DNA of 52,403 bases from the IMG/VR virus record IMGVR_UViG_3300032782_000001, positions 1 through 52,403 of that record; one strand, written 5' to 3'. Below the pieces are notes generated by a model. It was not told the DNA's origin. It did no database searches and saw only the letters and a program-made list of their open reading frames with translations. Source of the DNA: a virus. How positions within the stretch are numbered: position 1 is the stretch's first letter; each line of letters begins with the position of its first letter. Positions 166 to 47,603 of this stretch are shown here, piece after piece. The position numbers were made by a program, and so were the translations under genes.

Positions 166-402
166 TCACCCGTCGTCTTGCGCGTCCGCGGTCGCCTCTT
201 CTTCCGTGTCGAAGGGACCGTTCGGCGTCCCGTCAGGCACGCACCCGGGGAAGCAGGCCCACCAGTACCAGCCTGCAGCGAGCTTCTCGCCGTCTTCGGC
301 CTCCAGCTCACCTTCCGGGGCGTAGAAGACCTCGGCGTTCGGCAGAGCCGTCTCTTCGGTCTCACGGCTCTTGTCGGTGTAAATCTGCGGCATTGTCGTC
401 AC
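166..402 (-). CDS. small acidic hypothetical protein (78 aa)
   Basis: ORF track; GGAGGTGACGACA-ATG RBS directly upstream. Confidence 0.6.
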   Translation of the reverse strand: MTTMPQIYTDKSRETEETALPNAEVFYAPEGELEAEDGEKLAAGWYWWACFPGCVPDGTPNGPFDTEEEATADAQDDG

Positions 403-443
403 CTCCGATCTAGAGTACGACCGGAGGTGACGAACTTACGGCC
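403..443 (-). promoter_or_regulatory. conserved upstream cassette, palindromic variant
   Basis: GTCGTCACCTCCG..GAGTACGAC..CGGAGGTGACGAAC inverted repeat around a CGTAC/CGTAT core; CGTAAGTTCG box on the distal side. Confidence 0.55.
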
Positions 444-2738: not shown

Positions 2739-2777
2739 AATACTTGGCAGGGGATCGTCGATCCCCTGCCAAGTATT
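2739..2777. repeat. perfect 19-bp inverted repeat AATACTTGGCAGGGGATCG/CGATCCCCTGCCAAGTATT (TGGCAGGGG hairpin family)
   Basis: read directly; same stem motif as 31395-31430 and 44086-44112. Confidence 0.7.
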
Positions 2778-4245: not shown

Positions 4246-4473
4246 TTACGACGTTTCGTAGACCTTCAAACTCTCCCACGCCGGGATAGCAAACTGCTCG
4301 TCGTAGTCCCGCTCCGTGTCGTTCATGTCCTGCCGCCAGTCGATCTCGTGCTGATAGCAGGACTTGCAAACGATGGCATTGGAATCGCCACCCGTCGGCA
4401 GAAGCCGGACTTCACCTTCGACGCAGATCCCGAGCTGCTTGTCACAGCGAGGATTGTTGTAATGAGTCGCCAA
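4246..4473 (-). CDS. Cys-rich small protein (75 aa, TTG start)
   Basis: ORF track 4246..4650 trimmed to Leu60 (TTG), which follows GGAGGTGACGAAC; the residues upstream (PEVTNL) are the cassette read-through. Confidence 0.5.
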   Translation of the reverse strand: MATHYNNPRCDKQLGICVEGEVRLLPTGGDSNAIVCKSCYQHEIDWRQDMNDTERDYDEQFAIPAWESLKVYETS

Positions 4474-4520
4474 GTTCGTCACCTCCGGATCCAAATACGA
4501 CCGGAGGTGACGAACTTGCG
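4474..4520 (-). promoter_or_regulatory. conserved upstream cassette, palindromic variant (17-bp arms AAGTTCGTCACCTCCGG / CCGGAGGTGACGAACTT)
   Basis: read directly; central TCGTATTTGGAT. Confidence 0.55.
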
Positions 4521-6432: not shown

Positions 6433-6693
6433 TCAGCTCGACATGATGTTCCATACGACGAATTCGTTGAAGGAGATTTCACGGATGTCGGGTGGAAGAA
6501 TGGTTCCGTCGTCCATTCTTTTGTAGGTTTTGGAGACTCGTTGCCATTCTTCGGCGCAGGTTGGGCAGCAGCTGAAGGTGTTTTTGGTGGTCAGGCCTTG
6601 GAAGTAGACGGAGGTTGGGTTGGGGCAGGGTCCTTTGAAGGACAGGCAGGATTCTGGGTCCCAGGCGAAGTCTTTGGGGTTTCGGACGGTCAT
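6433..6693 (-). CDS. Cys-rich small protein, tail ...NEFVVWNIMSS (tail family)
   Basis: ORF track; ATGA overlap with upstream gene. Confidence 0.55.
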   Translation of the reverse strand: MTVRNPKDFAWDPESCLSFKGPCPNPTSVYFQGLTTKNTFSCCPTCAEEWQRVSKTYKRMDDGTILPPDIREISFNEFVVWNIMSS

Positions 6694-6947
6694 GCGTCCA
6701 TCACTTGGGCGACGAGGAATTCTGCTTCTGAGAGTTCTTCCACTTTAACCCATTGGCCAAGGAATTTCAGATATCGCGGTTTATCGGCGTGGGGGCTGAG
6801 GAATTGGAGTTTTCCGTGGGTGGGGCATCGGGCGAAGGTTCGGATGGTTCGTCCGAACAATGTACCTCGGAAGAATTTTGTGGCGGGTTCGCCGCATTCT
6901 TTTTCCGGGTCTAGCGGGTTTTCTGCGTAGTCGCAGGAGTTCTTCAC
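6690..6947 (-). CDS. Cys-rich small protein, tail ...EAEFLVAQVMDA (tail family)
   Basis: ORF track; GTGA overlap with upstream gene. Confidence 0.55.
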   Translation of the reverse strand: MKNSCDYAENPLDPEKECGEPATKFFRGTLFGRTIRTFARCPTHGKLQFLSPHADKPRYLKFLGQWVKVEELSEAEFLVAQVMDA

Positions 6948-7159
6948 GAGTCCATCACCTGTCGGCAGATGAATTCTTCTCGGGAGATTTCAATCGGCTC
7001 CATCGGAGCCCCGCGGATTTCCATCGGAAGCAGTCCGTTTAGGCAACATTGGTTACAAGTTCCCCATACGAACATTTTTCCTTCTTGGCGTTCGTACTGG
7101 AAGAATCGAGAGGCTTCGTTCTGGCAGTCGTCTATGCAGGGGATGGGTTCCGTTTTCAC
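6944..7159 (-). CDS. Cys-rich small protein, tail ...REEFICRQVMDS (tail family)
   Basis: ORF track. Confidence 0.55.
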   Translation of the reverse strand: MKTEPIPCIDDCQNEASRFFQYERQEGKMFVWGTCNQCCLNGLLPMEIRGAPMEPIEISREEFICRQVMDS

Positions 7160-7932
7160 GAGTCCATCACTTGGGCGACCAGGTACTCTTCCAGGGAGAT
7201 TTCCTGGATGTCATGTCCTGAATCTCGGGCGTGGTATCCGCATCGGGCCACGTTCAGGCGGGCGATCCTTCCTGAGAATTCGAATTCATCTCGGAAGAAT
7301 CGGACGGCCGGGTTTTGGCATTGTCCGGGGTCCAGTTTTTCCCAGTCGCATGGAATTCGGGGGTTTTCCGCGTCCCAGAGTTTTTGAAGCCTCTCCATTT
7401 CTTTCTGGAGGAGTGCTTGTCCGTCGAGTCCGTAGATCTGGTTGTCGAATTCGATGATTTTTTTCCGGTGTTCGGAGGGTCGGCTTGGGAGGCCCAGCGG
7501 GTTGACCATGAGCCAGTGCAGTTCTTTCGGAATCCGGTTTCCGGGGGAGGTGTCCAGGATGACCGGTTGTGGTCCTTCTCCGTCTTTCGGGTCTCCGTAT
7601 TCTTGACCGTCGTAGACGACCACGGGGAATGCGCCTTGGAGGTTGGGGAAGTGTGGGGAGTATTGGAAGATGTCAATTCGTCCGCATTGGAGCGCCATCC
7701 ATCGGCAGATGGTCCAGATGTATTCCCTTTCCAGGGAGCTACAGTTGTAGTCGAAGCCGATCCTGCACGGTCCGTCGTCGTAGGATAGGCTTTCGTTCGT
7801 CGGCAGTCCGTCTTCCAGTGGACCTCGGTAGTAGACTGGTTGGTCTGCCGGTTTTCCCAGGAGTTCGGGGAATTTCCGCAGGTTCTTTTCCAGGAAGGCG
7901 AGCATTCGCTTTTTGGCGATTTCGCTAGCCAT
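7156..7932 (-). CDS. hypothetical protein (258 aa), tail ...LEEYLVAQVMDS (tail family)
   Basis: ORF track 7156..7956 trimmed to Met9. Confidence 0.55.
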   Translation of the reverse strand: MASEIAKKRMLAFLEKNLRKFPELLGKPADQPVYYRGPLEDGLPTNESLSYDDGPCRIGFDYNCSSLEREYIWTICRWMALQCGRIDIFQYSPHFPNLQGAFPVVVYDGQEYGDPKDGEGPQPVILDTSPGNRIPKELHWLMVNPLGLPSRPSEHRKKIIEFDNQIYGLDGQALLQKEMERLQKLWDAENPRIPCDWEKLDPGQCQNPAVRFFRDEFEFSGRIARLNVARCGYHARDSGHDIQEISLEEYLVAQVMDS

Positions 7933-7959
7933 TGGCGCAGTAATGCTGTAGCCCACCGT

Positions 7960-8163
7960 TTAGCTCTCCATGACTTGTCGGACGACGAATTCTTCCAGGG
8001 TAACAAGTTTAGATTCCCATCCCTGGATGGAGTGAACTCGACATCTTGAAATGAATAGACGGGATGCTTTGAAGTAGTAGAAGTAAATGGATCTTTTACC
8101 GCACCTCGGTTCCTCGACAAGCCGGTCGGCTCCAGCATCGCACGGAATGAATTCGTCTCTCAT
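7960..8163 (-). CDS. Cys-rich small protein, tail ...LEEFVVRQVMES (tail family)
   Basis: ORF track 7960..8457 trimmed to Met99, which forms an ATGA overlap with the upstream stop; the track N-terminus is junk-like. Confidence 0.5.
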   Translation of the reverse strand: MRDEFIPCDAGADRLVEEPRCGKRSIYFYYFKASRLFISRCRVHSIQGWESKLVTLEEFVVRQVMES

Positions 8164-8348
8164 GATTCCATGACTTGTCGGATGACGAATTCTTCTCGTG
8201 AAATTTCTTTCGTATATTTTTCTCGCCGGCAGGTCGGGCAGTGTGAAGCGCAGCGTCCTTTCAATTTCCGGAATTTGGAGATTTGGAAGAATCGGATAGC
8301 TGGCAGTCCGCAGACGTATCCCGGTTGTGTGTAGTCGCAGGTGATCAC
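8160..8348 (-). CDS. Cys-rich small protein, tail ...REEFVIRQVMES (tail family)
   Basis: ORF track 8160..8753 trimmed to the GTG that overlaps the stop of 8345..8650 (GTGA). Confidence 0.5.
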   Translation of the reverse strand: MITCDYTQPGYVCGLPAIRFFQISKFRKLKGRCASHCPTCRREKYTKEISREEFVIRQVMES

Positions 8349-8650
8349 GGGTTTTCCGGCAGGAATTGCACGTCCACCAGGATGTCCGGGTCCACCCGAG
8401 CGTAGTACCCGTATTCGGCTTTGTCCAACCGATCGTCTCGAATCCCGATATCGCCAAAGCGGCTCACCGACGCGATCAGCACTTTGGAGCCGGCTTTCGC
8501 CATCCGCGTCGTCGTGTGTTCTTCCACCGGATGGGATCCATCCCAGATATGCATTTGGCAGTCCACCAGGAGGGTCGCGGTGGCGAAGTAGCCTTTGACT
8601 TCGAAAGTCGCCTTTCGCCGATACATCTCTTCCAAGATCTTCGCGTCCAT
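8345..8650 (-). CDS. hypothetical protein (101 aa), non-family gene inside the tandem array
   Basis: ORF track; cassette at 8651-8698 (GAAATCCG..GACGTATTGCG..GGAGGCGACG-ATG). Confidence 0.55.
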   Translation of the reverse strand: MDAKILEEMYRRKATFEVKGYFATATLLVDCQMHIWDGSHPVEEHTTTRMAKAGSKVLIASVSRFGDIGIRDDRLDKAEYGYYARVDPDILVDVQFLPENP

Positions 8651-8698
8651 CGTCGCCTCCAGATCGCAATACGTCTCGACCTTTCGGATTTCCGTCGA

Positions 8699-8947
8699 TC
8701 AGGAATCCATGACTTCGTGGATTACAAATTCTTCCAGGGTCACCTCGGTCCATCCGCTAACGCCATGTTCATCACATCTGGCGTTGCAGCCCGATCGGAA
8801 GACGTAAAACCTCGTCGCGTCTCGTCCGCACGTCTTATTCACGAGCCACGGATAAGACGTGCGGACGAGACGCGACGAGGTTTTACGTCTTCCGCACGTC
8901 TTATCCGTGGCTCGTGAATAGTGGTCACAAGGGATGAGCCTTGTCAC
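8699..8947 (-). CDS. Cys-rich protein, tail ...LEEFVIHEVMDS (tail family), carrying an in-frame palindromic insertion
   Basis: ORF track 8699..9409 trimmed to the GTG that overlaps the stop of 8944..9291; CDS contains the nested inverted repeat 8801-8917. Confidence 0.45.
   Translation of the reverse strand: MTRLIPCDHYSRATDKTCGRRKTSSRLVRTSYPWLVNKTCGRDATRFYVFRSGCNARCDEHGVSGWTEVTLEEFVIHEVMDS
8801..8917. repeat. nested inverted repeat: 38-bp perfect arms (8801-8838 / 8852-8889) around a 13-nt spacer, then a second copy of the arm end plus the inverted spacer (8892-8917)
   Basis: read directly: GACGTAAAACCTCGTCGCGTCTCGTCCGCACGTCTTAT-TCACGAGCCACGG-ATAAGACGTGCGGACGAGACGCGACGAGGTTTTACGTC-TT-CCGCACGTCTTAT-CCGTGGCTCGTGA. 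Confidence 0.75.
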
Positions 8948-9291
8948 TCCTGGTTGTACGGGTCCACTCGACATTCCAGCCTCGTCCACACGTCTTGGAA
9001 CCAGGTTTCCATCTTCTCGACCGAATCTCCCTCCCTCAACGATCGGGAGATGTCGAAAAAGTCGTCTTGGTTCCTTCGATAGAACCGGGCTTCGGCAGAG
9101 AAGGCGGTGTCTCCGCCGTAAGGCCGATGATCCCACCAATACACGTGAATGCAGTACAACTTCTTGACGTAGGTCGTGTCTTGGTCGAGGAAACTTCCTC
9201 GGATCCATTTGGACCACAAGCCGTCCGCCTTGTGAGGCTTGGATTCCCGGTACCCGGCTTTTTCGAGATCTGCTTCGGTGATCATCGTCAA
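8944..9291 (-). CDS. hypothetical protein (115 aa)
   Basis: ORF track; overlaps upstream gene stop. Confidence 0.6.
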   Translation of the reverse strand: MTMITEADLEKAGYRESKPHKADGLWSKWIRGSFLDQDTTYVKKLYCIHVYWWDHRPYGGDTAFSAEARFYRRNQDDFFDISRSLREGDSVEKMETWFQDVWTRLECRVDPYNQE

Positions 9292-9950
9292 ACCTCCACC
9301 ACTTGATATCCGATCTCGCGCGGTTGCCTTTCCTCGTCCAGATAAGCTGAATTGCAGAACTCCATCTCTTGGATGGTTTGGCGACCGAATCCGCCGTGCA
9401 CGTGTCCACTGAGCACGGCTTTCACTCGATGATCCGACTCGTAGAACAGGAAGTTGTACAGGTGAATGTTCCCCCTTTGCAGATCCAGGATCATGCTGGG
9501 CGGACAGTGGGCGAGCAACACGTCCGCCATTTTCAGCTCATCTTGGATCCAACGGAACTCTTGCCACATGTCTTGTGACCGACGTTCCCAGTTCCACTCC
9601 CCTTGAAGGTACGGGATGAAAGGGATCCCGTAGAACGTTCGGTCTTCCCACGTGATCAACTTCTTCGTCACGTTGACGGCGCGGATCCCGCCGGCTTTCA
9701 ACAGATCCTCGACGCGTTCCGGTTCCAGAAAGTCGTGATTTCCCGCCACGAACAGGAACGGCCGGTCTCCAAGCCATTCCTTCAATTTCTTCATCCTCCT
9801 CCGGAGCCAGTCCTCTTGGAACTTGGGCTCGACGGACCAGTCTCCACGCGTCTCGTTCGGCATGAAATCCCCCGAATGGACGACAGGCGCATCCAAATCC
9901 GGCAAATCCGGGAGCCTCCCATGCGTGTCAGAAACGTGGATGAGTTTCAT
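9288..9950 (-). CDS. calcineurin-like metallophosphoesterase
   Basis: motifs IHVSDTHG (DxH), GDF, GNHD, GHVH; ORF track trimmed to Met5 after GGTGAG RBS. Confidence 0.8.
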   Translation of the reverse strand: MKLIHVSDTHGRLPDLPDLDAPVVHSGDFMPNETRGDWSVEPKFQEDWLRRRMKKLKEWLGDRPFLFVAGNHDFLEPERVEDLLKAGGIRAVNVTKKLITWEDRTFYGIPFIPYLQGEWNWERRSQDMWQEFRWIQDELKMADVLLAHCPPSMILDLQRGNIHLYNFLFYESDHRVKAVLSGHVHGGFGRQTIQEMEFCNSAYLDEERQPREIGYQVVEV

Positions 9951-10000
9951 CTCACCAACCAATACGGCTCGACCCGTCGAATTTACGCCGACATCACTTC
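9951..10000 (-). promoter_or_regulatory. conserved upstream cassette
   Basis: minus reading GGCGTAAATTCGACGGGTCGAGCCGTATTGGTTGGTGAG-ATG; its TAA doubles as the stop codon of 9983..10237. Confidence 0.5.
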
Positions 10001-10237
10001 CCAGACGAGGAATTCTTCTTCAGTTATCCGGATCCATTTGTCTCCCAGGAACCCTGGTTTAAATCTGAGTGAATACTGATGTAGATTGCAAACAGCTGCG
10101 GCCCGATTCCCCGTAGGGCTCAATAGGAAGAAGTGTCTTGCAGGCCCGTTCGGCATCGACCCTTCTTCGCGTCTCTGCGCTTCGCACATCTCGCATTTTC
10201 GGACGCCACTTGTAAAATCTTCCATGTCGTCTGACAA
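9983..10237 (-). CDS. Cys-rich small protein, tail ...EEEFLVWEVMSA (tail family)
   Basis: ORF track. Confidence 0.55.
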   Translation of the reverse strand: MSDDMEDFTSGVRKCEMCEAQRREEGSMPNGPARHFFLLSPTGNRAAAVCNLHQYSLRFKPGFLGDKWIRITEEEFLVWEVMSA

Positions 10238-10442
10238 TCGGAAAGTTTGTCAGTCTAAACAACCACCCTGCAATGATCCGGCGGTCTTTGTCTATCACTA
10301 CTGGGATCCGCCTCCAGACCATCCCGGCTTGTCTCACCTGCCAAAAGACGACGAGGCCGCATTATGCGCGCGGTTACTGCAATCCCTGCTACCAGCGCGC
10401 CAAGCGGCCTTCAAGAGCTAAGTCGGCTTTCCGTGAGGAATT

Positions 10443-10724
10443 TCAAACCCACTCGAAGCCGAGACAGGAAAGGACGCTGGAAAGCCAGTCTCCGATGAGC
10501 TCCGGGTCCTGATCGGTGTCTCCCTCGAGGAGCTCGCCGTACTCCTTGTTGGCCTTTTGGATCTCCTCCCAGAGCTCGAACTTGTTGAGGGCGTCCGTGC
10601 CGATGCGCTTGTCGTTTCCGAAGTGGAACTTCCCGCCTCGGAGTTCTCCTTCCGCTTCCAGCTCATCCCAAGCCGCGTCGTACTGCTCGAACGTGGGGAG
10701 CTCGCCGTAGGTCATCGAGATCAT
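10443..10724 (-). CDS. acidic hypothetical protein (93 aa)
   Basis: ORF track 10443..10970 trimmed to Met83 after GGAGGTGACGCG; cassette at 10725-10790. Confidence 0.6.
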   Translation of the reverse strand: MISMTYGELPTFEQYDAAWDELEAEGELRGGKFHFGNDKRIGTDALNKFELWEEIQKANKEYGELLEGDTDQDPELIGDWLSSVLSCLGFEWV

Positions 10725-10915
10725 CGCGTCACCTCCGCGATCGGATACGCCGTGACTCGTTGGATTTACGATCGCGTTGTACGGTTCCCTAAGTGATCGT
10801 CCTTGACGATATTCCGACTTGCACTGCGGACCTCGGCGGTCTTTGGGATGATGAACCTCTTTGCAAGAATCCGGTCCGGTGGGTATTAGTGACACCCAAC
10901 GCTTGCCGACACTCC

Positions 10916-11032
10916 ATGGATGATTTTCCAGAGGGAGTTTGTGATGAGCATAAGATGCATCTGCGCCCAAGAGATGATCAAGTCATCCTGAGCGTAGAAG
11001 AATTCATCTGCTACGACGTCTCTACCTCTTGA
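10916..11032 (+). pseudogene. possible degenerate, inverted tail-family member (...SVEEFICYDVSTS)
   Basis: plus-strand ORF amid minus genes, no RBS, imperfect tail. Confidence 0.25.
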
Positions 11033-11295: not shown

Positions 11296-11514
11296 TTAAG
11301 ACATCATTACTTCATGGACGATGAACTCTGCTCGAGTGAGTTCCTGGACGAATCCCTTCTTGATTTCTTCCAAGAAAGTCGGATCCTCCGCGACGCATCG
11401 TTTGCAGCGGATAATGGGTCGCTTGCTGATGGTTCCTACAAAGAACCGGACGTCCTTGCTCATGCACATCGTGGTTTCCCACCCGAAGGGTACTTGGTTC
11501 TGGCAATAATCCAT
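11296..11514 (-). CDS. Cys-rich small protein, tail ...RAEFIVHEVMMS (tail family)
   Basis: ORF track 11296..11568 trimmed to Met19; cassette at 11515-11570. Confidence 0.55.
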   Translation of the reverse strand: MDYCQNQVPFGWETTMCMSKDVRFFVGTISKRPIIRCKRCVAEDPTFLEEIKKGFVQELTRAEFIVHEVMMS

Positions 11515-11590: not shown

Positions 11591-11667
11591 GGTGGACCGG
11601 AAGGGATTCGAACCCTCAGTTAGGAAGTTTTTAAAACCTCTGTGTCTGCCTTTTCCACCACCGGTCC
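11591..11667 (-). tRNA. tRNA-like gene, anticodon UAA (Leu-type anticodon but short variable arm)
   Basis: 7/7-bp acceptor GGACCGG/CCGGTCC, T-arm GAGGG-TTCGAAT-CCCTT, anticodon arm GAGGT-TTTAAAA-ACTTC, 3-bp D-stem, 77 nt ending ACC; coordinates approximate. Confidence 0.55.
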
Positions 11668-12520: not shown

Positions 12521-12709
12521 TCAGGCCGACATCACTTCGTACACGAGCCACGAGTTTCTCTCTTCGGGGGACATGGACTGAATAACTTCATCCAAGTTTG
12601 CCTGAAGCCTTTGCCGAAAGACTTCACGTTTCTCTTCGGACCTGGTGTCGTTCGTCAGCACATCTTGCAGTTGAGCGCTGATCCAGAACGCATCTTGAAC
12701 TTTGCTCAT
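12521..12709 (-). CDS. small protein, tail ...SWLVYEVMSA (tail family)
   Basis: ORF track; ATGA overlap. Confidence 0.5.
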   Translation of the reverse strand: MSKVQDAFWISAQLQDVLTNDTRSEEKREVFRQRLQANLDEVIQSMSPEERNSWLVYEVMSA

Positions 12710-13029
12710 GATGCATGGACCGCCAAGATGGTCATCTGACGCTTCACACGTTCTTTGATTTCCTCGAGGGGTCCGAAGAAGATGCGAAACCCGACGCCAT
12801 CCTTCGTGTACCAGATCTCACGACCATTGGCCTCTTGGGCGATGTTCATCCCGATCTGGATGTACTCGTGGGGCTCCAAATCCTGCCCCACATAATCGAA
12901 ATCCGTGAGTCCACCCTCGGTGAAATCCCCATTATCCAACGGGAAGATCTCGGCGTCGTTCTCTCGAGCGACAATGAACTCGGCGACAAGCGCCTGGAGT
13001 TCCTCATCCTCCTTGAATTTCAGCTCCAT
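12706..13029 (-). CDS. hypothetical protein (107 aa)
   Basis: ORF track 12706..13182 trimmed to Met52 after GGAGGATGGCTC. Confidence 0.55.
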   Translation of the reverse strand: MELKFKEDEELQALVAEFIVARENDAEIFPLDNGDFTEGGLTDFDYVGQDLEPHEYIQIGMNIAQEANGREIWYTKDGVGFRIFFGPLEEIKERVKRQMTILAVHAS

Positions 13030-13849: not shown

Positions 13850-14170
13850 CTAGCTATACATGACCGTCCAGACAGTCCACTCTTCGTCCGAAAGCTTGCG
13901 GATTTTCCCATGGAAGATGGTGTCTTCTCCCATAAAGCCCTTGTTCATGCACGACTTGCAGACGAGGAACATGGTGGCCCGGATCTTATCCAGCTTATCC
14001 AGACTCCCTACATTGGAATGCTGTTGAAGGTATTCTTCGGCGAAGACGAAAGCTGCAATGGGCTTCCCTGACTGAGTCCCCATGTGATTGGAACATGATG
14101 GGTCGCAGCAACGACCAGCTGTACCCCTCTTGGCCCTGGCCAGAAGCACCATCAGCTCTCGGTCGTTCAT
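13850..14170 (-). CDS. Cys-rich protein (106 aa), tail ...EEWTVWTVMYS (tail family)
   Basis: ORF track trimmed to Met10 after GGGAG. Confidence 0.5.
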   Translation of the reverse strand: MNDRELMVLLARAKRGTAGRCCDPSCSNHMGTQSGKPIAAFVFAEEYLQQHSNVGSLDKLDKIRATMFLVCKSCMNKGFMGEDTIFHGKIRKLSDEEWTVWTVMYS

Positions 14171-14172
14171 AT

Positions 14173-14325
14173 CTACTCCCAGTTCTCGACTTTCCAAGCG
14201 GACTGGCGCTCCTTGGCGCGTCGATCCGCTCGATGACGCATCTTCGCAGCCTTGCAGTTAAGAATGGCCGTAAGGCATTCGATGGAACGGGGCTTTTTAG
14301 GCTGCCGAGCCTTGCGAATCTTCAT
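14173..14325 (-). CDS. small very basic protein (50 aa, MKIRKARQPKKPRSIECL...)
   Basis: hand-translated; GGAGGTGACGACG-ATG; cassette at 14326-14380; not in ORF track (under 60 aa). Confidence 0.4.
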   Translation of the reverse strand: MKIRKARQPKKPRSIECLTAILNCKAAKMRHRADRRAKERQSAWKVENWE

Positions 14326-15749: not shown

Positions 15750-15768
15750 GGGTTCTCCACAGAATAAG

Positions 15769-15843
15769 AAGGCGCCTCGAGAAAGGGACCGTTCCTGAAC
15801 CATTTCTCAGATCCAGCTCCGGGTCCCTTTCTCGAGGCGCCTT
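15769..15843. repeat. 22-bp perfect inverted repeat (AAGGCGCCTCGAGAAAGGGACC / GGTCCCTTTCTCGAGGCGCCTT) with 31-nt spacer
   Basis: read directly; intergenic between two minus-strand genes. Confidence 0.7.
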
Positions 15844-15849
15844 CCTCCG

Positions 15850-16957: not shown

Positions 16958-17016
16958 TTCGTCACCTCCACGGTTCGATACGCGCGGAGGTGACGAATTT
17001 GCGCCGGCCGATCGAC

Positions 17017-17529: not shown

Positions 17530-17644
17530 TTGAAGTGCAATAGTCTGGACCAGGTGATTGACTCCTGGATAGGAGCCGCGAAGATGGCCGAAATGGAGGT
17601 GACGACTTCTTCGAAGTCACCTGGTCCAGACTATTGCACTTCAA
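17530..17644. repeat. 28-bp perfect inverted repeat (TTGAAGTGCAATAGTCTGGACCAGGTGA / TCACCTGGTCCAGACTATTGCACTTCAA) flanking a 59-bp spacer
   Basis: read directly; lies between the 3' end of the lipoprotein gene and the cassette of 17017..17472. Confidence 0.75.
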
Positions 17645-19224: not shown

Positions 19225-19428
19225 TCAGGACTCCATAGTATCTACGACGATTTCCAAGTTCCTGGCGATCTGTAGCGCTTCGCTGTCAGTGTCGCACCTG
19301 ACAACTACTTCACCTCCCCATGGTGAATCACTCATACTCTGGACCTTCATAGGAATGAACTGCGGCTTCCCAGATCCAGGTATCCTTACGACTGCGTAGA
19401 ATCCTACTTCTTGATCGGAATTTTTCAA
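19225..19428 (-). CDS. small protein, tail ...EIVVDTMES (tail family)
   Basis: ORF track; TTGA stop-start overlap. Confidence 0.45.
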   Translation of the reverse strand: MKNSDQEVGFYAVVRIPGSGKPQFIPMKVQSMSDSPWGGEVVVRCDTDSEALQIARNLEIVVDTMES

Positions 19429-19628
19429 GATTCCATGACCAAGAAGACCAAGAATTCTTCCTTGGTCATCTTTAGAGAGACGCTCTGACGATAAAGAGGA
19501 ATTCCCATCCCCTCATGTTCAGAACACCGGCTTTGAAAAGGGAACCCGGCAACGCCGCGGTAGAAGTGGGTCCCATCACGTCCGCATATGACGCATTGGC
19601 ACATTTCTTCATCAGTTAGTGTGCTCAT
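19425..19628 (-). CDS. Cys-rich small protein, tail ...KEEFLVFLVMES (tail family)
   Basis: ORF track; ATGA overlap. Confidence 0.55.
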   Translation of the reverse strand: MSTLTDEEMCQCVICGRDGTHFYRGVAGFPFQSRCSEHEGMGIPLYRQSVSLKMTKEEFLVFLVMES

Positions 19629-23731: not shown

Positions 23732-24174
23732 TGGAGGGGGACTTCAGTCAGCTCTGACATCTGGAGACGCATCCGTTCTACGTGATCTGAAAATGCGAGG
23801 TAATCACCTCGAGAAGCTGCCCAGCAAGCAGCTTCTCCCCAAAAAGCGCATGCCTCAAGAGCGAGGCGCCAATGGCGAGATGCTCGAGGTGCTTCATGGA
23901 CACGAATCCTTTGAAGAATTCTACATGCTGCTGCGAGGGTCCGTCGACATTCTACGGGGCCAAGTGATCGAAGATGGCCACTCATTTCAGGGAGACCAGC
24001 CGCATCAGTCATACACGGCATGAGTTGACGGACAACCGAATCAGCTTCAGGCAAGAGCTCCATGCTTTGGGAAGCACGCGGGTACAAAGACTTCATTCCA
24101 ACAAGTTACAACAGAGCCGCGAGCTCCGCAAATTCGACAGATCGGCACGTATGCAATTGTCAGGAGGTGCCGAC

Positions 24175-24801
24175 ATGTCGGACAACAAGAAGGGTTCGAG
24201 TTACGAGAGGATTTACCAAGCACTGCTGGACACGACGGAGGGCAAGGGGATCCAGGCGCGGGTGAAGCAGGCCATCGAGAACGTTCGGGTCACGGGCTAC
24301 CAGTTCAAGCTCAACAGCTCGGACGACGGACGGCCCGTCGCCGTGCCGCATTTCACGACGAACTGGGCGAAGGAACGGTCCTTCACGAAGAACAACATCT
24401 ACTGCAGCGTCTACGATCTCTTCACTACCGAAGAGTTCAATGCCATCGTGGAGGCCCACTTCGAGAAGGATGTGAAGACGTTCTTCTGCCGCAAGGACAC
24501 CGTGCTCAAGGGTTGCCGTGACGAGCGTGGCCGCAAGCACATCTCGTCGTTCGCTGCCTGGGCAGGGACTCAGATCGAAAATCTGACCGCCGACATCCGG
24601 GACGCAGCCGTCATCCGCCTCGAAAGTCAAGCTACGGAGCTTGCGTCCACCGCGGATTTCTTGCAGGACAGGCACAACGCGCTCCTGCGGTTCTGCCACG
24701 ACGAGGTGGTTCAGGTCATGTCGCGCTACGCGTTTCTCGGGACGGACGTCCTGAAGGGCGCACTCAAGGAGTTCTGCGTGGCAGATGTGATGGAGGCGTG
24801 A
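24175..24801 (+). CDS. hypothetical protein (208 aa), tail ...EFCVADVMEA (tail family)
   Basis: ORF track 23974..24801 trimmed to Met68 after AGGAGGTGCCGAC; cassette at 24125-24174. Confidence 0.6.
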   Translation: MSDNKKGSSYERIYQALLDTTEGKGIQARVKQAIENVRVTGYQFKLNSSDDGRPVAVPHFTTNWAKERSFTKNNIYCSVYDLFTTEEFNAIVEAHFEKDVKTFFCRKDTVLKGCRDERGRKHISSFAAWAGTQIENLTADIRDAAVIRLESQATELASTADFLQDRHNALLRFCHDEVVQVMSRYAFLGTDVLKGALKEFCVADVMEA

Positions 24802-25414: not shown

Positions 25415-25597
25415 ATGATTCATTGTTTTGAAGGCTGTGACAAACCAGTCATTGCTGGATATTCCGCTCAGGTTAACGATAGCCAGAGGCGCTTCCAATT
25501 TGTGTGTGAAGACCACGAAAAGCGATTCTTTCCGTGGGATGGTTGGATAAAACTGACCGATGAAGAGCTATTGGTTTACGAAGTCATGACATCATGA
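25415..25597 (+). CDS. Cys-rich small protein, tail ...DEELLVYEVMTS (tail family)
   Basis: ORF track. Confidence 0.55.
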   Translation: MIHCFEGCDKPVIAGYSAQVNDSQRRFQFVCEDHEKRFFPWDGWIKLTDEELLVYEVMTS

Positions 25598-27154: not shown

Positions 27155-27379
27155 ATGCCTCATGCCTGGATGAAGTATGAATCTGCAAACGCATACCGTC
27201 CTTACGGAGAAATGACTGGCACATACTTCCGTTTTGTATGTGCAAATTGTGGCCAAACCAAGATGCGAACAGATTCTCCCGAGTCTGATGAACGTCTTTG
27301 GACCAGCCCTTCTTGGTCCCCAAATGCCGTCCTGATGTCTTGCGAAGAAATCGTAGTTCTTGCAGTCATGGACTCTTGA
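27155..27379 (+). CDS. Cys-rich small protein, tail ...CEEIVVLAVMDS (tail family)
   Basis: ORF track. Confidence 0.5.
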   Translation: MPHAWMKYESANAYRPYGEMTGTYFRFVCANCGQTKMRTDSPESDERLWTSPSWSPNAVLMSCEEIVVLAVMDS

Positions 27380-29578: not shown

Positions 29579-29833
29579 TTGAAGGTCTTTAGGGAGAAGG
29601 ACCCGAAATCGGTCCAATGTCACCACGTCTACACCACCTTTGAAGTGGTACGGGAACAAGGACGATGTAAATATAAGGCATCCCGGTTCTTCATGTTGAT
29701 AGCGCTGGGGGCGTACTACGGATTTTGTAGGAAACATTGGAATGATGGTGAGAGATTGAATTCACCAGGAGAAACTCGGGCCACGGAGATCACCCGAGAC
29801 CAATACGTCGTCCATGAAATCATGGACTCTTGA
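29579..29833 (+). CDS. Cys-rich small protein, tail ...RDQYVVHEIMDS (tail family)
   Basis: ORF track; start uncertain (TTG). Confidence 0.45.
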   Translation: MKVFREKDPKSVQCHHVYTTFEVVREQGRCKYKASRFFMLIALGAYYGFCRKHWNDGERLNSPGETRATEITRDQYVVHEIMDS

Positions 29834-29899: not shown

Positions 29900-31387
29900 A
29901 TGCAGATGTCCGATGTCTCCAGGCTGAAAGACCCGAAGCGGGTCTGCACGAAGGAGGACGGGTCTTACGACCACGCCCGTCTCGCCCTCTTGCAAAAGAA
30001 GGTTTCCGACTGCATGACGAAGATGTTCCGCAAGCCCGAGGGCGGCGGAAACCCCTTCCTCTACGCCCTCACCCTGCCCAAGCCGCACGAGCTCGCCATC
30101 GAGCTCCCCGGGCCCAATGGGAAGGACTTCCACACGGCTGCCACCGACGGCAAGAAGTTCTGGTGGCACCCGGACTTCCTCGAGAAGCTGGACTCGGAAG
30201 AGGTGCCCACGGTCATGGAGCACGAGGGTTATCACGTGATCCTCTTCCATCCGCAACGTGGCGTGGGGACCAACCCCCGCATCTTCAACTGGGCGATCGA
30301 CTACGTTGTCAACGCCATCATCGAGACCAATCACAAGCAGCTCAACCGCAAGGGCAAGCTTTGGGGCGGGAACCTCGGCGAGCCGCTCTCGTTCGCGGAT
30401 CTTCTCTCGTACATCGATGGAAATTCGGAGCTCCCGAAGGACAAGAATTCCATCTTCGTGGACGTCTCGCTTCACGGACGGAGTCCGGAGTCGATCTACG
30501 AAGAGATCATGGATCATTGGGACAAGAGTCCGCGCAAGTGCTCTCTCTGTACGTGCCTGTCCATCGATCCGAAGACTGGCAAGCCCATCCACGCCCTTCA
30601 CGGCAAGAGCCCAGTGCCGCCGGAGAAACCGCACGACCCCCACTGCGACGGGACCTGCTGTCCCAAGTGTGGCGTCAAGTCGGACCCGCTCGGGTCGATG
30701 GACGCTCACATCCCGGGCGCCCTGACGAAAGATGAGGTCATGGCGGATATCATGCGCGCCAGGGACCAGTCGACGGCCATGAGGGGCACCGTTCCCTCCG
30801 AAGTGGAAGATGCGCTCAAAGAGCTGATGAAGCCTACGCTGAAGTTCACGGACATCGTCAAGTCCTGCTTCATGCGCAAGATCCAGGATGCTGGGATGAA
30901 GAACGACTGGAAGCGCTGCCGACGCCGGTGGTTGGCCTCCAATCCCAAGCAGTATCTCCCGAGGCGCCACACTCATCGGCCCCGGTGGCTTGCGATGGTG
31001 GACACCAGCGGCTCCATGCAGGACGATGATCTCCTCTACGGAATCTCTCAGCTCAAGGTTCTGGGAGACAACACGGAAGGTTACGTCATCCCCTGCGACG
31101 CATCTCCGAAATGGGATGCCATGCAGAAGATCGACAAGGCCACGGACCTGCAGAGGACCAAGATCGTCGGGCGCGGAGGAACGGTCTTCGATCAGTTCTT
31201 CCAGGACTTCCCGAAGAAGATCGGGACGGACTTCGACGTGGTGGTCATCATCACGGACGGAGACTGCGGGACGATCCCCCTGCACCTCAAGCCGCCGTGC
31301 GATGTCGTCTGGGTCATCACCCGGACCATGAAGGAGTATAAGCCCAGCTTCGGACGCGTGGCCCCGCTCCGCCCCTCTCGGATGTGA
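29900..31387 (+). CDS. VWA-domain protein with N-terminal HExxH metallopeptidase-like module (DUF2201-like partner of MoxR ATPases)
   Basis: HEGYHV motif, MIDAS DTSGSM; GGAGGTGACGAA-ATG; cassette at 29850-29899. Confidence 0.75.
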   Translation: MQMSDVSRLKDPKRVCTKEDGSYDHARLALLQKKVSDCMTKMFRKPEGGGNPFLYALTLPKPHELAIELPGPNGKDFHTAATDGKKFWWHPDFLEKLDSEEVPTVMEHEGYHVILFHPQRGVGTNPRIFNWAIDYVVNAIIETNHKQLNRKGKLWGGNLGEPLSFADLLSYIDGNSELPKDKNSIFVDVSLHGRSPESIYEEIMDHWDKSPRKCSLCTCLSIDPKTGKPIHALHGKSPVPPEKPHDPHCDGTCCPKCGVKSDPLGSMDAHIPGALTKDEVMADIMRARDQSTAMRGTVPSEVEDALKELMKPTLKFTDIVKSCFMRKIQDAGMKNDWKRCRRRWLASNPKQYLPRRHTHRPRWLAMVDTSGSMQDDDLLYGISQLKVLGDNTEGYVIPCDASPKWDAMQKIDKATDLQRTKIVGRGGTVFDQFFQDFPKKIGTDFDVVVIITDGDCGTIPLHLKPPCDVVWVITRTMKEYKPSFGRVAPLRPSRM

Positions 31388-31394
31388 TTTGCTG

Positions 31395-31430
31395 ATATAT
31401 GGCAGGGGTCGTTACGACCCCTGCCATATA
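31395..31430. repeat. TGGCAGGGG hairpin family member (ATATATGGCAGGGGTCG-TTA-CGACCCCTGCCATATA)
   Basis: read directly; intergenic, followed by GGGGAGGT-ATG of the next gene. Confidence 0.7.
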
Positions 31431-36020: not shown

Positions 36021-36310
36021 AACCGATACACAAACTCCACGGTCCTCGCCTAGAACGTCGTCAAGCCGAGAATCGGAAGTCGCTTCACAAGTTTCTGTCC
36101 AAACAACATCGGCCGATCCGTCGATATTTGACGGATGTATCCCCGGAACTTCTCTTCAAGGTCATCCGGTTCTTTGCATTGCATCCGGACCTGGCTTCTT
36201 CTTTCTCCGATTTCGTGAAGGAGGAGAAGCAACTCGTTAAAGATCTGGACGTGGAAGACGTAAAACACGTCCAGATGCTCATCATCGTGGAAGAAGTTCA
36301 GGAGTCCTGA
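36017..36310 (+). CDS. hypothetical protein (97 aa), tail ...IIVEEVQES
   Basis: ORF track 35936 trimmed to Met28 (ATGA overlap). Confidence 0.5.
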   Translation: MKPIHKLHGPRLERRQAENRKSLHKFLSKQHRPIRRYLTDVSPELLFKVIRFFALHPDLASSFSDFVKEEKQLVKDLDVEDVKHVQMLIIVEEVQES

Positions 36311-36311
36311 A

Positions 36312-36599
36312 ATGTCAGACGTCCCGAAACCAATCCGAAATGCGTGGAAGCGGATCAAGCAGGCTTGGGAATCCAGCCGCATCCACAGGCAAAGTCAACC
36401 GGGCGTCTGGACAATCTTCCATGTCGGAAAGAGGACTTATCGTTGTACGCAAACTGGCCTGAATACCATCGAGATCCAGTTTTTCGACAGCGGTGCCTTC
36501 AAGCAAGAAGTAGCCGGTCGTCTTCCGGAGAAGATCGATCTGCACGGCCTCCAGAAGGCTTTGGACCTTCTGGAGGTCGAACGTGTGATGACTGCCTAA
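36312..36599 (+). CDS. hypothetical protein (95 aa), tail ...LLEVERVMTA
   Basis: ORF track. Confidence 0.5.
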   Translation: MSDVPKPIRNAWKRIKQAWESSRIHRQSQPGVWTIFHVGKRTYRCTQTGLNTIEIQFFDSGAFKQEVAGRLPEKIDLHGLQKALDLLEVERVMTA

Positions 36600-42480: not shown

Positions 42481-42627
42481 TAGGACCCGGCCAGTAGAGT
42501 CCTTCATGGGACTCTGGACGATCTATTGTCATACTGTATGTCGGGTTGACAAAACAAACTTTGGCGAAGAGGTGGAAGAACCACGTCAACGCAGCCAAGT
42601 TGTCCAAAGGACGATGGCATTTCCCGA

Positions 42628-42852
42628 ATGCCATTCGAAAATATGGAGATGTGGCGTTCTCGCATGAAGTGCTGCTTCACGCTTTGTCCCCGAGATGCTT
42701 GTCTGGTCTTTCATGACTCAAATCATGAGTGGCCTATGTGCAAAGAGCACGAGGAAGAAGGAGAAAAGGACCTGAAAGCTCAATTTGAGGACAATCCTAT
42801 TCAGGTTATTTCCGGTCCTGAATTTCTTGTTTGGGAAGTCATGGAGTCATGA
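42628..42852 (+). CDS. Cys-rich small protein, tail ...PEFLVWEVMES (tail family)
   Basis: ORF track. Confidence 0.55.
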   Translation: MPFENMEMWRSRMKCCFTLCPRDACLVFHDSNHEWPMCKEHEEEGEKDLKAQFEDNPIQVISGPEFLVWEVMES

Positions 42853-42853
42853 A

Positions 42854-43063
42854 GTGAAATGCGGATTCGGAACCGAGAAGGACCCGGAATTCTCTTGCCC
42901 AAAAGCAGCCACTGTCGGGTTGCAATCTCGAACGCATAGAAATCACATTTTTATTCGTTGCAAAGAGCACTCCCTGGAACTTATCCTTCGGGGATTGTAC
43001 GACGTCATCGACCTGGAAGATGCCGAAAATTTCACTGTCGTCTATGAGATCATGAAGTCCTGA
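42854..43063 (+). CDS. Cys-rich small protein (GTG start), tail ...FTVVYEIMKS (tail family)
   Basis: ORF track 42785 trimmed to the GTG just after the upstream stop. Confidence 0.45.
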   Translation: MKCGFGTEKDPEFSCPKAATVGLQSRTHRNHIFIRCKEHSLELILRGLYDVIDLEDAENFTVVYEIMKS

Positions 43064-43139
43064 TCTGTTGTAAATTCTGCAAGGCCCGTCGGATCCGCAA
43101 ATTCGGCGGGCCGCGACGTATCTGGATCTGGAGGTGACT

Positions 43140-44085: not shown

Positions 44086-44112
44086 TGGCAGGGGTTTACT
44101 AAACCCCTGCCA
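44086..44112. repeat. TGGCAGGGG hairpin family member (TGGCAGGGGTTTA-C-TAAACCCCTGCCA)
   Basis: read directly; intergenic. Confidence 0.7.
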
Positions 44113-47328: not shown

Positions 47329-47603
47329 AGCTGTTTCTCCCAACGGGTCGGAGATGCAACTTCAAGGTAGCTCGTGATTCCTCCAATCCACCTTCGAAAC
47401 ATGACGTAAAACTTTGCGGTGAACCAACCATTGCGTATTGGTTAACTAAACCAGATGTTATACCGTTTGACGAACATCATCAATTGGTTAAACGGTGTGA
47501 GGAGCATACTCCTAATACTCGCCATTGGATGAGCTCTCGAGGAGAGTGGTGGTCCGAGATTTCTGAACAAGAACTGATCGTATTGGAGGTGATGGAATCA
47601 TGA
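47325..47603 (+). CDS. Cys-containing small protein, tail ...QELIVLEVMES (tail family)
   Basis: ORF track; GTGA overlap. Confidence 0.5.
   Translation: MKLFLPTGRRCNFKVARDSSNPPSKHDVKLCGEPTIAYWLTKPDVIPFDEHHQLVKRCEEHTPNTRHWMSSRGEWWSEISEQELIVLEVMES

What the first reader, a model, noticed from the sequence alone, without database searches (positions are those of the whole stretch)
8801..8917. Nested inverted repeats with a flipped 13-nt spacer lying in-frame inside a tail-family gene
The structure is A(38)-S(13)-A'(38)-TT-a(13)-S'(13), where the 38-bp arms are perfect reverse complements. The second occurrence of the arm end is followed by the spacer in inverted orientation.

The whole roughly 117-nt structure is translated without stops (ATDKTCGRRKTSSRLVRTSYPWLVNKTCGRDATRFYVF), so this family member is about 25 aa longer than its siblings.

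Candidates are a MITE-like insertion, a site-specific invertible segment captured in both orientations, a cruciform or recombination hotspot, or a foldback assembly artefact.
Basis: seen in the sequence. Interest (0 to 1): 0.65.

Follow-up and report, generated by a model that had tools for sequence, protein, structure and literature searches.

The report
Template-switch hairpin insertion in phage gene
A small phage gene carries a recent 66-base insertion, made entirely of back-to-front copies of its own neighbouring bases, which is the footprint of a DNA polymerase briefly copying the wrong strand; it is real, but it is an ordinary kind of mutation.

Summary
The nested inverted repeats are real. 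The arms are 43 nt (8796-8838 / 8852-8894, 100% complementary), not 38. The loop is 13 nt, and its reverse complement recurs at 8905-8917.

The structure lies in frame in an 82-aa gene (8699-8947, minus strand). This gene belongs to a large uncharacterised family of small Cys-rich proteins that end in EEFxVxxVMxS.

All 66 extra bases are reverse-complement or direct copies of adjacent sequence. A model with two template switches (microhomologies TAT and TCCG) rebuilds the window base for base.

A 97%-identical relative from another assembly lacks exactly these 66 nt and encodes an intact 60-aa protein, so it is a natural empty site. The inverted copies carry the window strain's own SNP alleles.

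Two independent de Bruijn assemblies contain both new junctions. The two Logan k=31 contigs end exactly where a perfect 43-nt inverted repeat forces a break (8825, 8865). They show no branch to the uninserted allele.

I therefore reject four readings: an assembly-graph artefact, a MITE, an invertase switch and a known RNA family. It is a recent, lineage-specific template-switch mutation, a miniature DUP-TRP/INV-DUP. Its effect on function is uncertain. The interest is modest.

The parts
8699..8947 (-). Host gene, 82 aa. It is a member of the small Cys-rich family that ends in EEFxVxxVMxS. Its GTG start overlaps the stop (GTGA) of the upstream gene.
   Evidence: Translation, family alignments A1 and A7, HMM search finding 332 relatives.
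8839..8904 (.). The 66-nt (22-codon) insertion, in one of several equivalent placements. Any 66-nt deletion starting between 8822 and 8839 gives the same 60-aa protein.
   Evidence: The natural allele L007 lacks exactly 66 nt.
8796..8828 (+). Segment a (33 nt). This is original sequence and served as template for the inverted copy a'.
8829..8838 (+). Segment b (CACGTCTTAT), first copy. Its last 3 nt (TAT, 8836-8838) are the microhomology of the first switch.
   Evidence: microhomology 1 = TAT.
8839..8851 (+). Hairpin loop S (TCACGAGCCACGG). It is the inverted copy (c') of 8905-8917.
   Evidence: It carries A at 8848, matching the window allele T at 8908 and not the relative's G.
8852..8894 (+). 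Arm A', made of b' (8852-8861) and a' (8862-8894). It is a perfect inverted copy of 8796-8838. Its last 4 nt (TCCG, 8891-8894) are the microhomology of the return switch.
   Evidence: It carries the window strain's alleles at 8870 and 8879, which mirror SNP sites 8820 and 8811.
8895..8904 (+). Segment b, third copy (direct). It was re-copied after the return switch. With 8888-8894 it forms the 17-nt direct repeat of 8822-8838.
8905..8920 (+). Segment c (CCGTGGCTCGTGAATA). This is original sequence and served as template for the loop S plus the TAT microhomology.
8944..9291 (-). Upstream gene in the same operon (called as 113 aa). It is used as the anchor to recover the independent contigs and the relative.
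8345..8650 (-). Downstream gene in the same operon (101 aa). It is present on the Logan, ENA and JGI contigs.

Best explanation
**What it is.** The structure is the footprint of one recent mutational event in the window strain's lineage. It is a short-range double template switch during DNA synthesis, either replication or recombination-dependent repair.

**How it arose.**
1. The nascent strand copied the gene up to ...CGTCTTAT (8838).
2. It then detached and re-annealed through 3 nt (TAT/ATA) on the strand of opposite polarity, 16 nt ahead.
3. It copied 59 nt backwards. This produced the loop S and the arm A'.
4. It detached again and returned through 4 nt (TCCG) to the original template, 10 nt behind the point where it had left. 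It then carried on.

**What it produced.** The result is a-b-c'-b'-a'-b-c, a 66-nt in-frame insertion.

**Shown:**
- the anatomy of the repeats;
- the exact reconstruction of the window from the model;
- the empty-site allele in a relative;
- the presence and dominance of the inserted allele in the reads.

**Inferred:**
- the enzymology (which polymerase, and whether at a fork or during repair);
- the consequences. The protein probably keeps its Zn-knuckle/beta-hairpin/helix core with an extra floppy 22-aa loop. The mRNA gains a 43-bp perfect stem that could impede translation or attract a dsRNA nuclease. The DNA gains a cruciform-prone palindrome. That palindrome can be lost again, restoring the 60-aa protein, by slippage between the flanking 17-nt direct repeats.
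For: - **Reconstruction.** Take the ancestral sequence as the window minus 8839-8904, with switch points 8838 -> 8920 (ancestral coordinate 8854) -> 8796 -> 8829. This reproduces all 52,403 bases exactly, with microhomologies TAT and TCCG.
- **Protein fit.** Removing the 66 nt gives a 60-aa protein that fits the family consensus C-x(n)-C-xxPAxRFF...RCxxH...EEFxVxEVMxS.
- **Empty site.** ENA contig ERZ27256474:k141_808118 (L007) is 97.3% identical over 778 nt. It has a single gap of exactly 66 nt at this site and an intact 60-aa ORF.
- **Local templating.** Three SNPs separate the two strains inside the templated segments (8811, 8820, 8908). At the mirrored positions 8879, 8870 and 8848, the inverted copies carry the window strain's alleles. 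All copies are 100% identical, which points to a recent, locally templated event.
- **Independent assemblies.** ENA MEGAHIT contigs k141_4065419 and k141_1250017 contain the loop in the same orientation, and between them both new junctions. Logan k=31 contigs of SRR8881007 end at 8825 and 8865. A k=31 graph simulation predicts exactly these ends for the inserted allele alone. A mixture with the uninserted allele would give 8891 instead, and the uninserted allele alone would give no break. The Logan assembly method is taken from PMC12424806.
- **Weak constraint on the gene.** The focal gene has 4 SNPs and 4 amino-acid changes. The neighbouring gene has 10 SNPs and 2 amino-acid changes. Fisher's exact test on these counts gives p about 0.015; that figure is my own hand calculation, not a tool result.
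- **Protein model.** AlphaFold2 models the insert as a low-confidence loop (block mean pLDDT 47-48 for residues 11-30, 69 for 31-40; residues 15-25 all below 50). The core has pLDDT of about 90.
Against: - **No reads examined.** Contiguity of the left flank, hairpin and right flank in one molecule rests on two things: the window's own assembly, and the relative showing that the two flanks are neighbours. The MEGAHIT assembly did not join across the hairpin. Its contigs stop 21-24 nt into the far arm from either side, and this is unexplained.
- **Unusual event class.** The return point (8829) lies before the departure point (8838). Loytynoja & Goldman did not observe this class among their human/chimp events, and it requires local opening of the new duplex (PMC5453318).
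- **Amplification chimera not formally excluded.** An in-vitro polymerase chimera that dominates the library cannot be ruled out without the reads.
- **Minor allele possible.** Graph cleaning could hide a minor uninserted allele.
- **Weak evidence for selection.** Being in frame and stop-free is weak evidence of selection. About 18% of random events of this class in this gene would be so.
Confidence: 0.8

Rival explanations
1. The inserted allele is a polymerase chimera made in vitro during library preparation or amplification (MDA or PCR template switching), not a sequence present in the phage population.
For: Polymerases make inverted chimeras joined at short microhomologies in vitro (general knowledge). 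All copies are 100% identical. MEGAHIT failed to assemble through the site.
Against: - An artefact would coexist with the true allele. The Logan high-side contig runs through 8890 to 8865 with no branch at 8891, and the simulation shows that a mixture would break at 8891.
- Logan discards k-mers seen only once and then simplifies the graph (PMC12424806). Both junctions survived this, in two assemblers.
Confidence: 0.06
2. The structure arose by template switching, as in the best explanation, but it is kept by selection as a new functional element. Possibilities are a regulatory or RNase III-type stem in the operon mRNA, a new protein loop, or an escape from sequence-specific host defence.
For: - The insertion is in frame and stop-free.
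- It is the dominant allele in its sample.
- The RNA stem is very stable, at -104.5 kcal/mol.
- The insert lies in the most length-variable loop of the family.
- The gene shows 4 of 4 non-synonymous differences from the relative.
Against: - 18% of random events of this class would be in frame and stop-free.
- There is zero divergence between copies, so there has been no time for selection to be visible.
- Other family genes show no excess of inverted repeats: 4 of 72 lie in 7.7% of the sequence, and 2 of those 4 are this locus.
- Only one strain carries the insertion.
Confidence: 0.1
3. A small non-autonomous mobile element (MITE, REP or PATE-like palindromic element) inserted into the gene, with a target-site duplication.
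For: A 17-nt direct repeat (16/17 identical) flanks 49 nt, which superficially resembles a target-site duplication.
Against: - The 49 nt between the repeats has no terminal inverted repeats of its own. It is entirely the reverse complement of the adjacent host sequence, including strain-specific SNP alleles.
- The 43-mer and the 13-mer occur nowhere else in the 52 kb.
- A 29-mer from the arm has no match in JGI metagenome contigs or GTDB genomes. A 33-mer spanning the left flank and the arm start has no match in IMG/VR.
Confidence: 0.01
4. The structure is a site-specific invertible switch caught in both orientations.
For: The 13-nt spacer occurs in both orientations, each next to the same 17-nt sequence.
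Against: - Both orientations are in one molecule and are explained by copying.
- Both MEGAHIT contigs and the window show the same single loop orientation between the arms, with no branch at the arm/loop boundary.
- No recombinase domain was found among 30 ORFs tested.
- 13 bp is far below the segment sizes of known invertases (general knowledge).
Confidence: 0.01
5. The window mis-joins two kinds of molecule that each end in the same hairpin, such as fold-back or hairpin-capped ends. That would explain why other assemblers break at this site.
For: A k=31 graph cannot tell flank1-hairpin-flank2 from flank1-hairpin-flank1' plus flank2'-hairpin-flank2. MEGAHIT also broke here.
Against: - The relative shows that the two flanks are contiguous within one intact gene.
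- The left side reads a-b-c', with no c between b and c', so it is not a simple fold-back.
- A third assembly (the window; JGI contig of 436,316 nt carrying both flanking genes) spans the site.
Confidence: 0.02

Closest known systems
Short-range template-switch mutations: the four-point model of Loytynoja & Goldman 2017 (PMC5453318), which generalises Ripley's quasi-palindrome model
   Same: - A single switch-and-return event.
[quoted passage not shown]
- It creates a perfect hairpin and an inverted spacer in one step.
- It is detectable by comparison with a close relative that lacks it.
- The inverted spacer implies an inter-strand switch.
   Different: - There was no pre-existing near-perfect inverted repeat. 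The ancestral sequence has only the 7-nt pair AAGACGT/ACGTCTT.
- The fragment is long (59 nt) and gives a net 66-nt insertion, not a cluster of substitutions.
- The point order is 3-4-1-2: the return point lies 10 nt before the departure point. That paper reports this class as possible but unobserved in human/chimp data.
DUP-TRP/INV-DUP complex rearrangements of human genomic disorders (for example PMC11293582)
   Same: It has the same architecture: a duplicated segment, then an inverted triplicated segment, then a duplicated segment (a x2, b x3 with the middle copy inverted, c x2). It is also attributed to two template switches.
   Different: - The scale is roughly four to five orders of magnitude smaller (10-33 nt segments against kb-Mb; the latter from general knowledge).
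- Both junctions use 3-4 nt of microhomology. In the human cases one junction lies within a pair of inverted low-copy repeats, in segments of about 2.2-5.5 kb at 100% identity.
- The host is a phage genome.
Template switching as a source of coding-sequence change in yeast (PMC8604942)
   Same: A templated inverted copy lies inside an ORF and changes the protein without breaking the reading frame.
   Different: The yeast cases mostly homogenise existing inverted-repeat arms or invert spacers, giving multinucleotide substitutions. This event adds 22 new residues.
MITEs and REP-like palindromic elements
   Same: A short palindromic insertion flanked by a direct repeat.
   Different: The insertion contains no foreign sequence, has no other copies and has no terminal inverted repeats of its own.

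Membership tests
Template-switch mutation (four-point model) | The new sequence is fully explained by one fragment copied in reverse complement from nearby reference sequence, between two collinear fragments. | tested here: met
   the model output equals the window over all 52,403 bases.
Template-switch mutation (four-point model) | A closely related sequence retains the unmutated state. | tested here: met
   L007 is 97.3% identical and has one 66-nt gap at the site.
Template-switch mutation (four-point model) | The switch points are ordered so that the return does not require opening the new duplex (point 4 not before point 1), as in all event types observed in human data. | tested here: not met
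   The order is 3 (8796) < 4 (8829) < 1 (8838) < 2 (ancestral 8854) in both orientations (PMC5453318).
Classical quasi-palindrome correction (Ripley) | A pre-existing near-perfect inverted repeat is converted into a perfect one. | tested here: not met
   The ancestral and relative sequences have only a 7-nt inverted repeat, AAGACGT/ACGTCTT, at 8799-8805 and 8830-8836.
DUP-TRP/INV-DUP | Architecture of duplication, inverted triplication, duplication. | tested here: met
   The order is a b c' b' a' b c, with coordinates as in the parts list.
DUP-TRP/INV-DUP | One junction lies within a pre-existing pair of long inverted repeats. | tested here: not met
   The junction homologies are 3 nt and 4 nt.
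MITE / palindromic mobile element | Foreign sequence with its own terminal inverted repeats, present in multiple copies. | tested here: not met
   All inserted bases are local copies. There is no other copy in the window or in three collections.
Site-specific DNA inversion switch | Both orientations of the segment are present in the population. | tested here: inconclusive
   The two MEGAHIT contigs and the window show a single orientation. Reads were not available, so a minor form cannot be excluded.
Site-specific DNA inversion switch | A dedicated recombinase is encoded nearby. | tested here: not met
   No recombinase, integrase or transposase Pfam domain was found in 30 ORFs tested, including those within about 10 kb. 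The scan was not exhaustive.
De Bruijn graph fold-back misassembly | The junctions coincide with palindromic or shared (k-1)-mers, and the junction k-mers are absent from the reads. | tested here: not met
   The microhomologies are 3-4 nt. The junction sequences appear in MEGAHIT and Logan contigs, which contain only k-mers seen in reads. The Logan ends at 8825 and 8865 match the simulation.
Known structured RNA (Rfam) | The score reaches the family's gathering threshold. | tested here: not met
   Only sub-threshold hits to miRNA-precursor models were found (31.6-55 bits against gathering scores of 70-90). These are generic long-hairpin matches.

The most novel reading that the evidence does not exclude
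The hairpin is more than a passing accident. In this reading, huge-phage replication produces return-behind-departure template switches (order 3-4-1-2) that the human surveys did not see. This one has been kept because its 43-bp RNA stem or its new 22-aa loop changes expression or specificity in a fast-evolving multigene family. It would then be a one-step origin of both a structured RNA element and a protein loop, caught at zero divergence with its empty site still in the environment.
Probability: 0.1. Interest if true: 0.55.

Novelty: new member of a known kind. Interest (0 to 1): 0.3.

Why it matters
- **A clean natural example.** It is an unusually clear case of a short-range template-switch mutation in an uncultivated, probably about 436-kb phage. 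The product, the exact templates, the microhomologies and the natural empty-site allele are all in hand.
- **A one-step change at three levels.** A single replication error adds 22 residues to a protein. It also creates a stem of about -100 kcal/mol in the mRNA and a cruciform-prone palindrome in the DNA.
- **A practical lesson for metagenomics.** Contigs of two assemblers break at the site. A reader could mistake the locus for an artefact, a MITE or an invertible switch.
- **No new biology revealed.** It does not reveal a new biological system.

Tried and rejected
**Searches that found nothing**
- blastn of 7000-11000 against INPHARED phages.
- Exact searches in IMG/VR (a 33-mer spanning the left flank and arm start) and in JGI metagenomes and GTDB genomes (a 29-mer from the arm).
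- A conserved 31-mer flank in JGI metagenomes.
- The neighbouring phosphoesterase in IMG/VR.
- The 82-aa protein: no word-sharing homologue.
- Exact look-ups of the 82-aa and the reconstructed 60-aa proteins: neither is on record.
- Homologues of the neighbouring 113-aa protein: only itself.
- A paper search for the two accession numbers.

**Hypotheses tested and dropped**
- MITE.
- Invertase switch.
- Rfam family or intrinsic terminator at the site.
- Graph misassembly.
- Recurrent template switching as a diversifier of the family: other members show no excess of inverted repeats.

**Attempts to characterise the gene family that gave nothing**
- Pfam and PHROGs: no hits.

Full report
**1. The observation**

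- The perfect arms are 8796-8838 and 8852-8894. They are 43 nt at 100% complementarity, not 38 nt.
- A 13-nt loop, TCACGAGCCACGG, lies between them at 8839-8851.
- A second inverted repeat pairs 8836-8868 with 8888-8920 (33 nt, one mismatch at 8890). The loop therefore reappears in reverse complement at 8905-8917.
- A 17-nt direct repeat (16/17 identical) lies at 8822-8838 and 8888-8904. Its copies are 66 nt apart.

None of this is chance.
- The 43-mer and the 13-mer occur only at these sites in the window. About 0 to 0.04 matches are expected in shuffles.
- The strand folds at -65.6 kcal/mol as DNA (z = -13) and at -104.5 kcal/mol as the minus-strand RNA (z = -15).

**2. The gene**

The structure lies in an 82-aa minus-strand ORF, 8699-8947. 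Its GTG start overlaps the TGA of the upstream gene (GTGA). It sits in a run of small, tightly packed minus-strand genes from about 9962 down to 6433, several of them joined by 4-nt start/stop overlaps.

The gene belongs to a family.
- At least 18 small ORFs in the window share the pattern C-x(2-20)-C-xxPAxRFF ... RCxxH ... EISxEEFxVxEVMxS-stop.
- A profile of these 18 finds 332 cluster representatives (E <= 1e-3) among 1.84 billion proteins. The 150 listed are nearly all 52-116 aa long, and their matches run to or within a few residues of the C-terminus.
- The family has no Pfam or PHROG match.
- AlphaFold2 models a beta-hairpin, a third strand and a C-terminal helix (the "tail"). Core pLDDT is about 85-90. 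No solved fold matches significantly.

The window looks like part of a large phage.
- It encodes a DNA ligase, an AAA ATPase, a DUF2201/VWA protein and a ParB-like protein, all with PHROG hits.
- Several of its proteins, including the two genes that flank the focal gene, are on record on a 436,316-nt JGI/IMG contig.

**3. Anatomy of the insertion**

Deleting any 66 nt that start between 8822 and 8839 restores a 60-aa protein, VTRLIPCDHYSRATDKTCGRDATRFYVFRSGCNARCDEHGVSGWTEVTLEEFVIHEVMDS. This fits the family consensus.

The extra 66 nt contain no foreign sequence. Name three ancestral segments:
- a = 8796-8828
- b = 8829-8838
- c = 8905-8920

The window then reads a b c' b' a' b c, where a prime marks a reverse complement.

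An explicit model uses four steps:
1. Copy the ancestral strand up to 8838.
2. Switch to the complementary strand at the ATA of 8918-8920.
3. Copy back to 8796.
4. Return to 8829.

This model reproduces all 52,403 bases of the window. The junction microhomologies are TAT (3 nt) and TCCG (4 nt). The single "mismatch" at 8890 is simply the return junction. It is not divergence between copies.

**4. A natural empty site**

The cluster of the neighbouring 113-aa protein contains a variant from a different ENA analysis, ERZ27256474, contig k141_808118, 778 nt.
- Aligned to window 8539-9382, it is 97.3% identical (757 of 778 positions, 21 SNPs).
- It has one internal gap of exactly 66 nt at the site.
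- Its ORF is intact and 60 aa long. It differs at four residues from my reconstruction.

Three of the 21 SNPs fall inside the templated segments, at 8811, 8820 and 8908. At the mirrored positions 8879, 8870 and 8848, the inverted copies in the window carry the complement of the window strain's alleles, not the relative's.

Three lines of evidence therefore agree that this is a recent insertion in the window's lineage, templated locally, and not a deletion in the relative:
- the allele match in the inverted copies;
- zero divergence among the copies;
- the absence of the insert from all paralogues.

**5. Is it in the reads?**

Three other contigs meet at the site.
- Logan (k = 31) contigs of SRR8881007 end at exactly 8825 and 8865.
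- ENA MEGAHIT contigs of ERZ27256589, of 337,333 and 102,037 nt, end at 8872 and 8815. They overlap by 58 nt. Both contain the loop in the same orientation, and between them they contain both new junctions.

De Bruijn contigs contain only k-mers seen in reads. [quoted passage not shown]

A k = 31 graph simulation gives these contig ends:

| Alleles in the reads | Predicted contig ends | Observed? |
|---|---|---|
| Inserted allele alone | 8825 and 8865 | Yes |
| Inserted plus uninserted | 8825 and 8891 | No |
| Uninserted alone | No break | No |

From this I draw three conclusions.
- The structure is present in the reads.
- It is the dominant allele in that run.
- It cannot be a graph fold-back, because the junction homologies of 3-4 nt are far below any k.

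An amplification chimera would have to have replaced the true allele, which is unlikely.

Two caveats apply.
- I had no reads.
- MEGAHIT did not join across the hairpin. Its contigs stop 21-24 nt into the far arm from each side, and I cannot explain this. Degraded reads in a 43-bp stem are the likely cause, but that is inference.

Contiguity across the hairpin in this strain therefore rests on two things: the window's own assembly, and the adjacency of the flanks in the relative.

**6. Rejected readings**

- **MITE.** There is no foreign sequence, the insert has no terminal repeats of its own, and there is no other copy in the window. A 29-mer from the arm has no match in JGI metagenomes or GTDB genomes, and a 33-mer over the left flank and arm start has none in IMG/VR.
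- **Invertible switch.** Both spacer orientations lie in one molecule as copies. The loop has a single orientation in every assembly that spans it (the window and both MEGAHIT contigs). No recombinase domain was found in 30 ORFs tested.
- **Known RNA or terminator.** Rfam gives only sub-threshold miRNA-precursor hits, which any long hairpin would give. No terminator-like site lies here.
- **Recurrent diversification of the family by template switching.** Other family genes show no excess of inverted repeats.

**7. Consequences (inferred)**

- **Protein.** The insert falls in the most length-variable loop of the family, between the first two Cys residues, and duplicates the KTCGR motif. AlphaFold2 models it as a low-confidence loop (block mean pLDDT 47-48 for residues 11-30, 69 for 31-40). 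The core keeps pLDDT of about 90.
- **Reading frame.** Being in frame and stop-free is weak evidence for selection. About 18% of simulated events of this class in this gene are so.
- **Constraint on the gene.** The gene appears weakly constrained or fast-evolving. It shows 4 SNPs and 4 amino-acid changes against the relative. The neighbouring gene shows 10 SNPs and 2 amino-acid changes.
- **RNA and DNA, from established knowledge.** A 43-bp perfect RNA stem can hinder ribosomes and is a typical dsRNA-nuclease substrate. A 99-bp palindrome with flanking 17-nt direct repeats is prone to deletion by slippage. Such a deletion would restore the 60-aa protein.

**8. Comparison with what is known**

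The event fits the generalised four-point template-switch model (PMC5453318). An inverted spacer is the recognised sign of an inter-strand switch. It differs from the classical cases in two ways.
- There was no pre-existing quasi-palindrome, only a 7-nt inverted repeat.
- The point order is 3-4-1-2, with the return 10 nt behind the departure. That paper lists this class as possible but unobserved in human/chimp data, because it needs local opening of the new duplex.

Architecturally it is a miniature DUP-TRP/INV-DUP (PMC11293582), but with microhomology at both junctions.

**9. Verdict**

The thing is a real, very recent, lineage-specific template-switch insertion, so it is a new member of a known kind of mutation. 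Confidence is 0.8 and interest is about 0.3.

The more interesting items are incidental. One is the uncharacterised tail-bearing protein family that pervades this roughly 436-kb phage. The other is the strong excess of short perfect inverted repeats with recurrent motifs in the window.

Noticed in passing
window 6433-6693, 6690-6947, 6944-7159, 7156-7956, 7960-8163, 8160-8342, 8699-8947, 9983-10237, 10793-11032, 11296-11514, 13850-14257, 19425-19628, 25415-25597, 27155-27379, 29600-29833, 42622-42852, 42854-43063, 47370-47603, 52164-52400; tail alone also at 12521-12817, 23974-24801, 36264-36599, 43134-44084: About 20 genes in 52 kb end in the same C-terminal tail, ...EISxEE[FY]x[VI]xx[VI]MxS-stop. 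Most are 57-110-aa Cys-rich proteins, and a few are larger proteins with unrelated N-terminal parts. A profile finds 332 cluster representatives in public data. One member lies on a 241,648-nt IMG/VR contig (L008 5264-5488). There is no Pfam, PHROG or PDB fold match. The tail is modelled as an alpha-helix. The function is unknown; a shared C-terminal helix on otherwise diverse proteins hints at a common partner or sorting signal.
   Followed up: partly
whole window: The window's proteins are on record on a 436,316-nt JGI/IMG contig. They are also on two ENA MEGAHIT contigs (337,333 and 102,037 nt) that meet at the hairpin. The window is probably part of a huge phage genome of about 436 kb. This contig did not turn up in the searchable JGI collection.
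   Followed up: partly
window 8815-8872: The two MEGAHIT contigs of ERZ27256589 both stop inside the hairpin, 21 and 24 nt into the far arm, and overlap by 58 nt. MEGAHIT's k=141 exceeds the 99-nt hairpin, so the break is not forced by the graph. The likely cause is read degradation in the stem, but this is not shown.
   Followed up: partly
window 8981-8996: A third copy (15 of 16 identical) of the 16-mer CTCGTCCRCACGTCTT lies in the neighbouring gene, in a different reading frame, in both the window and the relative. About 0.07 matches are expected in the whole window. It is either an older templated event or a DNA-level motif; this is unexplained.
   Followed up: partly
window 2739-2777, 31396-31430, 44086-44112: Three perfect palindromes with a 1-nt centre share the core TGGCAGGGG...CCCCTGCCA. 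Two of them lie directly after the stops of the ORFs 29900-31387 and 43134-44084. They are candidate terminators, processing sites or operator sites.
   Followed up: no
window 396-433, 706-743, 4471-4518, 16958-16997: Four hairpins have arms containing TTCGTCACCTCCG / CGGAGGTGACGAA, that is, a Shine-Dalgarno-like GGAGGTGA paired within a stem. They may be a recurrent regulatory hairpin.
   Followed up: no
whole window: Short perfect inverted repeats are in strong excess. With arms of at least 10 nt and loops of at most 80 nt, there are 44 observed against 4.4 +/- 2.3 in Markov-1 simulations. With arms of at least 12 nt, there are 19 against 0.5.
   Followed up: partly
window 17530-17557 / 17617-17644 and 15768-15790 / 15822-15844: Two further perfect inverted repeats (28 nt with a 59-nt loop, and 23 nt with a 31-nt loop) appear to lie between genes. 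Neither has the nested copy structure of the focal locus.
   Followed up: partly
window 11591-11667 (minus strand): A tRNA-Leu gene (anticodon UAA) lies inside the array of small genes.
   Followed up: no
window 8699-8947 against 8944-9291, compared with L007: Against the 97%-identical relative, the focal gene has 4 SNPs, all non-synonymous. The adjacent 113-aa gene has 10 SNPs and only 2 amino-acid changes. The family member is under relaxed or diversifying selection.
   Followed up: partly
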